Of a stretch of DNA of 64,000 bases, positions 7,217 through 11,099 are shown in pieces. The position numbers and the translations under genes were made by a program. The stretch lies in NCBI RefSeq assembly GCF_009914755.1, contig NC_060942.1; one strand, 5' to 3'. Numbering within the stretch: position 1 is the first letter of the stretch; every line of letters begins with the position of its first letter. Source of the stretch: the human T2T-CHM13v2.0 reference genome, Homo sapiens. Under the pieces are notes generated by a model. It saw nothing but the letters and a program-made list of their open reading frames with translations, searched no databases and had not been told where the DNA came from.

Positions 7217-7232
7217 AAAAATACATGCTCCA

Positions 7233-7339
7233 GTGCTCGCTTCGGCAGCACATATACTAAAATTGGAACGATACAGAGAAGATTAGCATGGCCCTTGCGC
7301 AAGGATGACACGCAAATTCGTGAAGCGTTCCATATTTTT
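7233..7339 (+). pseudogene. RNU6: Full-length U6 snRNA retrocopy (5' part of a U6/L1 chimera)
   Basis: GTGCTCGCTTCGGCAGCACATATAC...ACAGAGAAG...GCGTTCCATATTTTT, 107 nt; one difference from U6 (C63T at 7295); no recognisable U6 promoter upstream. Confidence 0.98.
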
Positions 7340-8795
7340 CTTCAAACTATACTACAAGGCTACAGTAACCAAAACAGCATGGTACTGGTACCAAAACAGA
7401 GATATAGATCAATGGAACAGAACAGAGCCCTCAGAAATAATGCCGCATATCTACAACTATCTGATCTTTGACAAACCTGAGAAAAACAAGCAATGGGGAA
7501 AGGATTCCCTATTTAATAAATGGTGCTGGGAAAACTGGCTAGCCATATGCAGAAAGCTGAAACTGGATCCCTTCCTTACACCTTATACAAAAATCAATTC
7601 AAGATGGATTAAAGATTTAAACGTTAGACCTAAAACCATAAAAACCCTAGAAGAAAACCTAGGCATTACCATTCAGGACATAGGCGTGGGCAAGGACTTC
7701 ATGTCCAAAACACCAAAAGCAATGGCAACAAAAGCCAAAATTGACAAATGGGATCTAATTAAACTAAAGAGCTTCTGCACAGCAAAAGAAACTACCATCA
7801 GAGTGAACAGGCAACCTACAGAATGGGAGAAAATTTTCGCAACCTACTCATCTGACAAAGGGCTAATATCCAGAATCTACAATGAACTCAAACAAATTTA
7901 CAAGAAAAAAACAAACAACCCCATCAAAAAGTGGGCGAAGGACATGAACAGACACTTCTCAAAAGAAGACATTTATGCAGCCAAAAAACACATGAAAAAA
8001 TGCTCATCATCACTGGCCATCAGAGAAATGAAAATCAAAACCACTATGAGATATCATCTCACACCAGTTAGAATGGCAATCATTAAAAAGTCAGGAAACA
8101 ACAGGTGCTGGAGAGGATGTGGAGAAATAGGAACACTTTTACACTGTTGGTGGGACTGTAAACTAGTTCAACCATTGTGGAAGTCAGTGTGGCGATTCCT
8201 CAGGGATCTAGAACTAGAAATACCATTTGACCCAGTCATCCCAATACTGGGTATATACCCAAATGACTATAAATCATGCTGCTATAAAGACACATGCACA
8301 CGTATGTTTATTGCGGCATTATTCACAATAGCAAAGACTTGGAACCAACCCAAATGTCCAACAATGATAGACTGGATTAAGAAAATGTGGCACATGTACA
8401 CCATGGAATACTATGCAGCCATAAAAAAGGATGAGTTCATGTCCTTTGTAGGGACATGGATGAAATTGGAAACCATCATTCTCAGTAAACTATCGCAAGA
8501 ACAAAAAACCAAACACCACATATTCTCACTCATAGGTGGGAATTGAACAATGAGATCACATGGACACAGGAAGGGGAATATCACACTCTGGGGACTGTGG
8601 TGGGGTCGGGGGAGAGGGGAGGGATAGCATTGGGAGATATACCTAATGCTAGATGACACGTTAGTGGGTGCAGCGCACCAGCATGGCACATGTATACATA
8701 TGTAACTAACCTGCACAATGTGCACATGTACCCTAAAACTTAAAGTATAATTAAAAAAAAACAAAAACAAAAACAAAAACAAAACAAAAAAAAAA
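7340..8795 (+). mobile_element. 5'-truncated young L1 (L1HS pre-Ta-like, ACG/A type): ORF2 C-terminus, 3' UTR and A-rich tail
   Basis: Uninterrupted ORF2 frame [11 protein letters not shown]...SLIGGN* including zinc knuckle [21 protein letters not shown] at 8658-8660; A at 8743; tail 8753-8795. Confidence 0.96.
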
Positions 8796-9459
8796 GACAC
8801 TACAGGATGACCTGGCCTTCTGTTAGACCCCTTTCCCTCCCTACACCCCTGCCACACAGGCCTCCCTGCCTGTCCTCAAATATGCCTGGCAACTGGCAAC
8901 TCCTCAGGGAGAGCCTTCCACTGCTATTCCCTCTGCCTGGAGTGGTCTTCCCCACAGACCTCAATTGCTCATCTCCTTGAAATCTTGGCTCAAATGTTAC
9001 CTTGTCAGTGATGCTCTCCCTATCTCCTCTATTTAACATTGCAACATTCCCTTTTACTCAAATATCCTTGTCTCCACAGCACTTACCACTTTATAGCACA
9101 CTATATACTTTATTGATTATGCTTTATTATCTTGCCCTTTCCCACCTCAAAATAGAATATAAGGTTAGGAAGGTAGGAATTTTTTTCCATTTTGTTCACT
9201 GCTGTGTACCCAGCTCCTGGGACAGTCCTGGCGCCCAACTGCTTGATATTTATTGAATGAATGAATGTACAGGAGAATGGCTTTGAACATGCACTGTGTA
9301 ATCAGATAGATTTGGGCTTGAATTTCAACTCTGTCACTATTAGCTGTCTGACTCTAGGCAAACAGTGCATGTTAACAGTTGTGGTACAGTGCCCAGCATA
9401 TAGGAAATGTCTCTTTTTGTTTAGCTATCATTATTAAAACATAATAAAAAAAAAAAAAA
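8796..9459 (+). other. L1 3' transduction (contains L2 and MIR remnants) ending in a second poly(A)
   Basis: Lies between the L1 tail and the 3' TSD; ATTAAA at 9433-9438, A14 at 9446-9459; TSD AAAAATACATGCTCCA at 7217-7232 and 9455-9470. Confidence 0.92.
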
Positions 9460-11099
9460 TACATGCTCCAAGTAAAGGGAAGTCAGGGGCTATAGTCACA
9501 AGTAAATATGTCTGAAGTTTTGTCAAGCTAAGAGGAACATTATGGTTTTTTTGATGACTACCGTGCTTATTTTATCACTTGTGCTTTTTTTCTGGAGCAG
9601 TTTAAATGTTTTTTTTTTTCTCTGCACTATGTATCATATTTTTCTATTAATTTGCATGACATATAAGTTTTGACTGGATGCTTGTCATTGTGAATTTTAC
9701 CTTGTTGGGTGCTAAATATTTTCATCTTTTTATAATTATTCTTAACCTTTGTTCTGAGTACTATTCCACTACCTGGAAACGTATCTTTCATGTCTTGAAG
9801 CTTTTAAGTCTTGTTAGATGAGACCAGAGTAGCATTTAGCCTTGGGCTATCTTACCTACTGAGTACTGAGAAAGAACCATTTGGATGGAGTACTTTACCT
9901 AATGGACTGTGAATTATGAGGTTTTCCACTCTGACTGTTGAGAACAGGGGTGATTATTACTGGCCTTGTGTGAATCCTAGAGGTTGTTACTTCTAATTCT
10001 TTTAGATGTTAGTTTTCTTACAAGTATGCGCTGGTCACCACCCTACCGAATACTCTGTGGGCCCCCAGGGTTCTCTCTCTGATGGTGCTCATCTTGGTGA
10101 GCACTTTGCTAGACATTTTATTTGAAGACTATGACTAAGAAATAAAATTATTTGTTGTGATTCATTAGCTGAAGGTGTTAGAAATAAATAACTCAAAATT
10201 TAAGGGAAAATCAGCCATATTTTTAGATTAAAAATGGAATAATAGAAAGTGATTGATTTCTAAAGGAGCTAGGTATTTGCCAATAATTTTACAGAATAAC
10301 TTCTTTCTACTGATTGAACAAATTTATATAATCATCTCTCTCTAAATGTGTATGTTATAGATTGATAAACAATCACATAAAGTACCACACATCATCTTGT
10401 ATTTCCTTATTAGATATTTTATTTTATCTGAAATATATGCTAGATAACTTCTTGATAAAATACAAATTACATTTCTCAGATCAATATTCTGTGCAAGTCA
10501 TAATGAATTATCTATTGACCATGTGATATCCTTTGTAACCTTGTGGATATTTCTGTTAAGAAAAATAGATAATTATTTGGGACTCTAATTGGCTTTTTCC
10601 TGGCCTTTCAGTGACTCTGTGGACAAAAATCAGCCATCAGCTAAAATGTGTAACCTTGGATTGTTGAAACAGGCACTGAACCCTCACTTTAATGCAATTG
10701 AGTTAGGTATTACAAAATGGCAGTACTGATTTAAAAAAACCATTTGAATCATTTATAATAGACACAATAGGGATGTATTACTTTTCATATTTTTTATTTA
10801 TAAAAATTTTATGATTCAGTAGTTCAACTCTTACATGAACTACCATCCATATTCATCTGCACCCCCACAACCATATATAGAAGCAAAAAGTTAGCCTCCT
10901 ATTACATGTATGTTACAAAGCTCTATGTCAAAGAGTAATAATGTCTTCAAGAGATGACAGGTTCTGTTGGTGAATTACTAACAGGCAAAAAAGCTTTAGA
11001 CTAATAGATCTTGCTCTTTAAGATAAACCAGAAATCTTTATGCTGGGCTACTCTCCAAGTATGCCTATAAATAGAGAGTGGGCATAGAGTTTACTTTTT

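What the first reader, a model, noticed from the sequence alone, without database searches (positions are those of the whole stretch)
7217..9470. Tripartite retro-insertion: U6 snRNA + young L1 3' end + 3' transduction inside one TSD
Seen: a perfect 16-bp TSD AAAAATACATGCTCCA (7217-7232, 9455-9470) at a canonical TT|AAAA L1 endonuclease site. Inside it, in order: full U6 (7233-7339), L1 ORF2 and 3' UTR (7340-8751), an A-rich tail (8753-8795), about 650 bp of non-L1 DNA, and a second poly(A). No TSD copy follows the first tail. Established: U6/L1 chimeras and L1 3' transductions are each known classes, and the U6 part is probably annotated as an RNU6 pseudogene. Inference: a Pol III snRNA was joined to a read-through L1 transcript, so three RNA segments from two loci moved in one event. 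The transduced tag makes this a U6/L1 chimera whose parent L1 can be traced. I cannot verify whether this combination has been reported.
Basis: partly seen in the sequence, partly recalled or inferred. Interest (0 to 1): 0.88.

Follow-up and report, generated by a model that had tools for sequence, protein, structure and literature searches.

The report
U6/L1 chimera carrying a 3' transduction
A copy of U6 snRNA, the last 1.4 kb of a young L1 and 650 bp of DNA that lies next to a full-length L1 on chromosome 8 were pasted into chromosome 18 as one retrotransposition product; it combines two well-known L1 side effects and is tidy but ordinary.

Summary
A perfect 16-bp TSD (7217-7232 / 9455-9470) at a TT|AAAA site encloses five parts:
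- a full U6 (7233-7339; Rfam 116 bits);
- L1 nt ~4599-6010 (7340-8752);
- an inherited A-rich tail (8753-8795);
- 650 bp of non-L1 DNA (8796-9445);
- a 9-A tail.

I traced the 650 bp. In this assembly it has only one other full copy, 100% identical, at chr8:94,536,572-94,537,216. There it lies directly 3' of a full-length L1 (chr8:94,530,513-94,536,570) that has its own 12-bp TSD. The chr18 copy carries that element's 3' TSD and its (A5C)n tail pattern. It stops 7 nt after an ATTAAA, where chr8 reads on. This is a classical 3' transduction from chr8 to chr18.

Both L1s have the ACG triplet of the L1Hs pre-Ta subfamily.

The U6/L1 chimera is already listed by Law & Burns (2026, Table S2; L1 called L1PA2). 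The transduction is not noted there, nor in any paper I could search.

One oddity remains. The L1 bodies differ at 14 of 1412 sites, while the 650-bp tag has no differences (p ~0.005-0.007). This is unexplained.

Verdict: real and correctly interpreted, but a combination of known kinds, so of modest interest. Ape and pangenome empty sites could not be checked here.

The parts
7217..7232 (+). 5' target-site duplication AAAAATACATGCTCCA, preceded by TTTT (L1 endonuclease site TT|AAAA)
   Evidence: (D5, 100%)
7233..7339 (+). Full-length U6 snRNA copy (RNU6-39P) ending in 5 T. It has one substitution against the best other genomic U6 copies.
   Evidence: RF00026, 116 bits, model 1-105/105; only self at 100%, 10 copies at 99%
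7340..8546 (+). L1 ORF2 C-terminal part (about L1 nt 4599-5805). 401 codons are open to the natural stop at 8544-8546.
8547..8752 (+). L1 3' UTR, with ACG at 8658-8660 (the pre-Ta diagnostic triplet)
   Evidence: definition of the triplet from passages of PMC7026601 and PMC12350158
8753..8795 (+). A-rich tail inherited from the source element (A9 C A5 C A5 C A5 C A4 C A10). It was not made by polyadenylation in this event. The chr8 tail begins with the same A9 C A5 C A5 C.
8793..8804 (+). Copy of the chr8 source element's own 3' TSD (AAAGACACTACA), carried along inside the insertion
8796..9445 (+). 3'-transduced unique DNA, 100% identical to chr8:94,536,572-94,537,221, which lies directly 3' of the full-length chr8 L1
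9433..9438 (+). ATTAAA, the presumed poly(A) signal used by the read-through transcript. Homology to chr8 ends 7 nt after it.
   Evidence: use of the signal is inferred
9446..9454 (+). Terminal poly(A) of the retrotransposed RNA (9 A; up to 14 A if the 5 A of the TSD are counted). It is absent at chr8.
9455..9470 (+). 3' target-site duplication

Best explanation
This is a single L1-mediated retrotransposition event in the human lineage.

1. A full-length pre-Ta L1 at chr8:94,530,513-94,536,570 (CHM13) was transcribed through its own weak poly(A) site.
2. The transcript was polyadenylated about 650 nt downstream, after an ATTAAA in chr8 flanking DNA.
3. L1 endonuclease nicked chr18 at TTTT/AAAA inside an intron of CCDC102B.
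4. Reverse transcription started on the new poly(A). It copied the chr8 flank, the source element's 3' TSD and A-rich tail, and then 1.4 kb of L1 back to about nt 4599.
5. There the cDNA continued into a complete U6 snRNA. Either U6 (ending in U5 with a 2',3'-cyclic phosphate) had been ligated by RtcB to a 5'-OH fragment of the read-through RNA before reverse transcription, or the reverse transcriptase switched template to U6.
6. Second-strand cleavage 16 bp away produced the TSD.

Shown: the anatomy, the source locus and the direction of transfer. Inferred: that it was one event, which way U6 was joined, and the age (human lineage, from the pre-Ta triplet).
For: - One perfect 16-bp TSD brackets everything, and no TSD copy lies inside.
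- The target is a TT|AAAA site.
- U6 is full length, sense, ends in 5 T and joins the L1 without filler. This matches the genomic U6/L1 chimeras described in passages of Moldovan 2019, PMC6789731 (5-7 T, TSDs of 6-19 bp, EN site).
- Window 7340-9445 is collinear with chr8:94,535,111-94,537,221 at 99.0% over 2111 columns.
- The 645-bp query has only two full-length hits in the assembly, both at 100% (self and chr8). The other 26 of 28 hits are partial, at 67-88%.
- The chr8 L1 is full length and flanked by AAAGACACTACA at its 5' edge and after its tail. So the 650 bp is native chr8 DNA, and the chr18 copy contains that TSD.
- Both tails share the idiosyncratic A9 C A5 C A5 C start.
- chr8 reads on (TATGATT...) where chr18 has poly(A), 7 nt after ATTAAA. 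This points to an RNA intermediate.
- The window L1 and the chr8 L1 share two rare derived bases, 8244A and 8396G. These are found in 0 of 26 non-family copies and define a small family: 8 copies that carry both markers, the chr8 element among them, plus the window.
- Law & Burns Table S2 lists the U6 and L1 at hg38 chr18:68,858,934-68,860,488 with found_by_msa_prediction = 1, meaning both are present or absent together across species.
- The DNA flanking the insertion contains no L1.
Against: - The L1 bodies differ at 14 of 1412 sites, while the transduced 650 bp and the last 136 bp of the L1 have none. Fisher p = 0.007; binomial 0.005; 0.0012 for the post-hoc boundary at 8615.
- Eight of the 28 other closest L1 copies are nearer to the window's L1 body than chr8 is (11-13 differences against 14), and 4 tie. 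None of chr8's 6 private bases is in the window.
- The window has GA at 7821-7822, where all 7 family members that cover the site have AC. GA in its 29-nt context occurs 506 times in the genome, mostly in older L1PA copies. Two adjacent reversions by point mutation are unlikely.
- The chr8 element has interrupted ORFs in this assembly; the largest pieces are 218, 233, 579 and 368 aa.
- The gap between signal and cleavage site (7 nt after the hexamer) is short.
- The empty site in apes or other humans was not examined.
Confidence: 0.85

Rival explanations
1. Same single event, but with one more recombination. Reverse transcription began on the chr8 read-through RNA and switched, within the homologous L1 3' UTR (somewhere in 8616-8752), to a different L1 RNA of the same small family, which was itself joined to U6. 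The product would then be a four-part mosaic.
For: - All 14 L1 differences lie 5' of 8616, and there are none in the 786 bp 3' of it outside the tail.
- The window body is no closer to chr8 than to other family members.
- GA at 7821-7822 is foreign to the family.
Against: - No other copy in the assembly carries the window's private 8236T together with 8244A; only self is 100% among the 40 scored of 1322 candidates. So no donor was found.
- None of the family members shares any window-private base.
- 10 of the 12 codons hit are amino-acid changes. This looks like decay after insertion rather than differences between active elements.
- It needs an extra rare step.
Confidence: 0.08
2. Two events. 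An older U6/L1 chimera with the same TSD existed first. Later, a heavily 5'-truncated cDNA of the chr8 read-through transcript was primed in the chimera's poly(A) tail and was resolved by homology with the resident L1 3' end. This replaced the resident 3' end and added the tag without a new TSD.
For: It would explain why the 5' part (U6 with 1 substitution in 107 nt; L1 body with 8 private bases) looks older than the 3' part, which has 0 differences.
Against: - The resident L1 would by coincidence have to belong to the same small family that carries both markers, 8 copies including chr8 (8244A, 8396G).
- The internal tail differs from the chr8 tail even though it lies inside the supposedly young part.
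- This type of resolution is rare (recalled from cell-culture studies, which I did not read here).
Confidence: 0.04
3. This is not a transduction. Either 8796-9445 is native chr18 DNA, or a DNA-level duplication moved the L1 3' end plus flank between chr8 and chr18.
For: None beyond the lack of an empty-site check.
Against: - The 3' TSD copy lies after the segment, not before it.
- The segment ends in a poly(A) that chr8 lacks, just after ATTAAA.
- The chr8 element's own TSD shows the segment is native to chr8.
- Homology begins exactly at the U6/L1 junction.
Confidence: 0.01

Closest known systems
U6/L1 chimeric retropseudogenes (Buzdin 2002/2003, recalled; Doucet 2015, PMC4476161; Moldovan 2019, PMC6789731; Law & Burns 2026, PMC13174262)
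   Same: A full-length sense U6 ending in 5 T is fused to a 5'-truncated L1. One TSD brackets the unit, at a TT|AAAA site. This very locus is a row in Law & Burns Table S2.
   Different: The L1 moiety does not end at its own tail. It continues into 650 bp of foreign unique DNA. That row gives no TSD, and the word 'transduction' does not occur in the file.
L1 3' transduction (Moran 1999, Goodier 2000, Pickeral 2000: recalled, not read here; population surveys such as PMC12350158)
   Same: Read-through of the L1 poly(A) site, use of a downstream signal, carry-over of the source element's tail and 3' TSD, and a unique tag that maps to the flank of a full-length progenitor.
   Different: The 5' end of the transduction-bearing copy is capped by a Pol III snRNA rather than simply truncated. 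The progenitor has interrupted ORFs in this assembly.
Tripartite chimeric retrogenes made by double template switches (Gogvadze 2005/2007, as cited in Doucet 2015)
   Same: Three sequence blocks lie inside one TSD.
   Different: Here two of the three blocks (L1 and flank) are one contiguous transcript, so only one joining step is needed.

Membership tests
U6/L1 chimeric retropseudogene | Full-length U6 at the 5' end, in sense orientation to the L1 | tested here: met
   RF00026, model 1-105/105, + strand, 116 bits. The L1 is also on the + strand.
U6/L1 chimeric retropseudogene | U6 ends in a short T run joined directly to a 5'-truncated L1 | tested here: met
   ...CCATATTTTT|CTTCAAAC..., with 5 T. 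Homology to L1 starts at 7340. The range of 5-7 T comes from passages of PMC6789731.
U6/L1 chimeric retropseudogene | One TSD around the whole unit, at an L1 endonuclease consensus site | tested here: met
   16 bp, 100% identical, at TT|AAAA.
U6/L1 chimeric retropseudogene | U6 and L1 arrived together (the empty site lacks both) | not testable with these tools
   No ape or pangenome sequence is held. Law & Burns Table S2 flags the row msa_prediction = 1; that is their analysis, not mine.
L1 3' transduction | Non-L1 DNA between the element's own tail and a terminal poly(A), inside the TSD | tested here: met
L1 3' transduction | The tag maps uniquely to DNA directly 3' of a full-length L1 elsewhere | tested here: met
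   2 full-length hits, both at 100%; the chr8 L1 is 6010 nt plus tail and has its own TSD.
L1 3' transduction | The tag ends at a poly(A) signal, and the poly(A) is not templated at the source | tested here: met
   ATTAAA at 9433-9438. chr8 continues TATGATT where chr18 has A14.
L1 3' transduction | Progenitor is retrotransposition-competent | tested here: not met
   the ORFs are interrupted in the CHM13 allele. This describes its present state only. It need not have been so at the time, and a U6-capped fragment would be mobilised in trans anyway.
L1Hs pre-Ta subfamily | ACG triplet in the 3' UTR (L1 positions 5929-5931) | tested here: met
   ACG in the window, in chr8 and in 27 of 28 closest copies. 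The definition comes from PMC7026601 and PMC12350158. RepeatMasker's label in Law & Burns is L1PA2.

The most novel reading that the evidence does not exclude
The insertion may be a mosaic with two histories. Under this reading the U6 and the L1 body up to about 8615 come from a different L1 RNA, or from an older resident copy. Only the last ~136 bp of L1, the tail and the tag come from the chr8 read-through transcript. That would be a natural record of L1-to-L1 recombination during or after target-primed reverse transcription, dated by a unique tag.
Probability: 0.1. Interest if true: 0.5.

Novelty: new member of a known kind. Interest (0 to 1): 0.3.

Why it matters
It is a clean, fully resolved example in which the L1 half of a U6/L1 chimera can be assigned to one progenitor locus and one read-through transcript. 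That shows that U6 capping acts on ordinary Pol II L1 transcripts polyadenylated at a downstream genomic site. It also gives a unique 650-bp tag for genotyping and dating the event in apes and in human haplotypes.

It does not reveal a new mechanism. As I recall, 3' transductions accompany roughly one L1 insertion in five to ten, and 180 U6/L1 chimeras are catalogued, so a handful of such combinations is expected.

The contrast between a 1% diverged L1 body and an identical tag is a small puzzle that pangenome data could settle.

Tried and rejected
1. Supplement searches by phrase ('chr18 688' and similar) gave a false negative. The colon is not bridged by a space, as one search showed. Searching by number found the row.
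2. Searching the TSD string in the supplements of Law & Burns and Doucet found nothing. The U6 rows carry no TSD columns.
3. Doucet's readable supplement is a matrix of p-values. Its Supplemental Data PDF, which may list this locus, cannot be read here.
4. Garcia-Perez 2007 and Gilbert 2005 are not held. Whether they, or Buzdin 2002/2003, describe a genomic U6/L1 chimera with a transduction is open.
5. I tested whether chr8's private bases 7359C and 7479A came from gene conversion by older L1s. I rejected this: the apparent matches in L059 and L060 are non-L1 flank misaligned in copies truncated 3' of that region. Rows with identity below about 0.9 are unreliable at sites 7359-7550.
6. The copies identical to window 8380-8445 (27 besides self) are not a hidden donor lineage. 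The 20 I fetched are old L1PA copies, 86-97.5% identical, none with ACG.
7. I planned a survey of the 39 other best U6 copies for further chimeras with transductions. So I have no count of how common the combination is.
9. 'RNU6-39P' occurs in 2 papers. Both look unrelated, judged from the listing only.
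Full report
**What is there**

AAAAATACATGCTCCA occurs at 7217-7232 and 9455-9470 and nowhere else in 7000-9700 (family D5, 100%). About 8.5e-4 exact 16-mer repeats are expected by chance in 2.7 kb. The 5' copy follows TTTT, so the top strand reads TT|AAAA, the L1 endonuclease consensus.

The parts between the two copies are these:
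- A complete U6 lies at 7233-7339. Rfam RF00026 gives 116 bits against a gathering score of 44, model positions 1-105 of 105, and it is the only Rfam hit in the stretch. It ends in TTTTT.
- U6 is joined without filler to L1 sequence that starts at 7340.
- The L1 part keeps 401 ORF2 codons open to the natural stop at 8544-8546, followed by the 3' UTR to 8752.
- An A-rich tail, A9 C A5 C A5 C A5 C A4 C A10, runs from 8753 to 8795.
- 650 bp of non-L1 DNA follow (8796-9445).
- Nine A follow (9446-9454), and then the second TSD copy.
- The DNA outside the TSDs has no L1 homology.

**Where the 650 bp comes from**

A search of the window's own assembly with 8796-9440 gave 28 hits. Only two are full length, and both are 100% identical: the window itself and chr8:94,536,572-94,537,216. 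The other 26 are partial, at 67-88% identity; from memory they look like an ancient MIR-type repeat inside the segment.

Window 7340-9445 is collinear with chr8:94,535,111-94,537,221 at 99.0% over 2111 columns. So the L1 3' end, the tail and the 650 bp are contiguous on chr8.

The chr8 L1 is full length. Its 5' end (GGGGAGGAGCC...) is at 94,530,513. It is preceded, after four extra bases, by AAAGACACTACA, and the same 12-mer follows its tail. The 650 bp is therefore native chr8 flank, and the chr18 insertion carries a copy of the chr8 element's 3' TSD at 8793-8804.

Both tails begin A9 C A5 C A5 C. Homology ends after ...ATTAAAACATAAT. chr8 continues TATGATT..., whereas chr18 has poly(A). This is the signature of an RNA that read through the L1 poly(A) site and was cleaved 7 nt after an ATTAAA. 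The direction of transfer, chr8 to chr18, follows from these points.

**Subfamily and age**

The window, chr8 and 27 of the 28 closest copies have ACG at 8658-8660. According to passages in PMC7026601 and PMC12350158, ACG marks L1Hs pre-Ta and GAG marks L1PA2 or older. RepeatMasker's label in Law & Burns' table is L1PA2; PMC7026601 notes that some pre-Ta insertions were categorised as 'L1P' in an earlier call set.

The window and chr8 share two rare derived bases, 8244A and 8396G. All 8 family copies examined have them, and none of 26 non-family copies does. A 71-nt query around 8244 found ten copies one mismatch away, chr8 among them.

The U6 part differs by one base from the best other U6 copies: only self is 100%, and 10 copies are 99%.

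I could not look at ape genomes, so 'human lineage' rests on the triplet alone.

**How it most likely arose**

One target-primed reverse transcription event on a chr8 read-through transcript, capped at L1 nt ~4599 by U6.

Two ways of joining U6 are in print. One is RtcB ligation of U6 (2',3'-cyclic phosphate, U4-5 end) to a 5'-OH L1 RNA fragment before reverse transcription (Moldovan 2019, PMC6789731, passages). The other is a template switch by the reverse transcriptase (Doucet 2015, PMC4476161, passages). The full-length U6 with 5 T and no microhomology fits both, and nothing here separates them.

If ligation came first, the RNA lacked ORF1 and most of ORF2 and must have been mobilised in trans.

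**A point that does not fit well**

The 14 substitutions between the window and chr8 all lie in 7359-8615. There are none in 8616-8752 or in the 650-bp tag. Fisher p = 0.007; binomial 0.005; 0.0012 for the post-hoc boundary.

I polarised the 14 differences with the 28 closest copies:
- 6 changes are private to chr8.
- 8 are private to the window: 7550C, 7821G, 7822A, 8031A, 8236T, 8429G, 8518A and 8615A.

Further observations bear on this:
- Eight of the 28 other copies are closer to the window's L1 body than chr8 is, and 4 tie.
- Family members have 1-5 private bases each, and one chrY copy has 12. The window has 6 by the same count and chr8 has 5.
- Ten of the 12 codons hit change the amino acid, as expected for decay after insertion.
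- The window's GA at 7821-7822 replaces the family's AC. In its 29-nt context GA occurs 506 times in the genome, mostly in older copies. This looks like a short conversion or recombination patch rather than two point mutations.
- No copy elsewhere combines 8236T with 8244A, so I found no alternative donor.

I keep the single-event model at 0.85. The heterogeneity could come from chance plus a little L1-to-L1 conversion, from an unseen chr8 allele, from an extra L1-to-L1 template switch (0.08), or from a two-step history (0.04). CpG content differs between the parts (12 CpG in the L1 part, 1 in the tag), but only 2 of the 14 differences are CpG transitions.

**What is known**

Law & Burns 2026 (PMC13174262; I read the outline, section 10, and passages of the text and supplements) catalogue 253 chimeras, 180 of them U6/L1.

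Table S2 has the row chr18:68859041-68860488 L1PA2 with U6 at chr18:68858934-68859040, proximity 1, msa 1. No TSD is given for that row, and the word 'transduction' does not occur in that file. In the main text the word refers to 5' transductions.

Doucet 2015 has 'transduction' only in its reference list.

Three full-text searches found no paper describing a U6/L1 chimera with a 3' transduction:
- 14 papers hold all five terms (U6 snRNA, chimeric, transduction, LINE-1, pseudogenes).
- 1 paper.
- 4 papers.

The early subscription papers and one supplementary PDF could not be read. In cell-culture assays, as I recall, recovered U6/L1 chimeras carry reporter and SV40 sequence 3' of the L1, which is formally the same thing.

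**Verdict**

The source L1 is now identified. The chimera itself is already catalogued. The transduction and its chr8 origin appear to be unrecorded in what I could search, but they are an expected coincidence of two known L1 by-products. I score interest at 0.3.

Noticed in passing
L011 (G000:C8:94527000-94536999), chr8:94,530,497-94,530,523: Four extra bases (CGCA) lie between the 5' TSD of the full-length chr8 L1 and the first G of the element. They could be untemplated or 5'-end heterogeneity. The element's ORF1 and ORF2 are interrupted in this assembly; the largest ORFs are 218, 233, 579 and 368 aa.
   Followed up: partly
window 8850-9270: Parts of the transduced segment match many loci at 67-88% identity. 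From memory the sequence looks like a MIR-type ancient repeat. It is not in NCBI's list of masked stretches of 100 bp or more.
   Followed up: no
L082 (G000:C24:12661729-12663294): The chrY member of the 8244A/8396G L1 family has 12 private substitutions in 1411 bp. Its relatives have 1-6.
   Followed up: no
window 14803-16469: The SDHCP1 processed pseudogene is annotated 5 kb downstream in the same CCDC102B intron. It is another L1-mediated retrocopy near this one. I did not examine it.
   Followed up: no
window 7821-7822 and L013, L022, L038: Among ACG-type (pre-Ta) L1 copies this dinucleotide is polymorphic: AC in most, AA in L013 and L022, GA in L038 and the window. One ACA (Ta) copy, L057, has GA.
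   Followed up: partly
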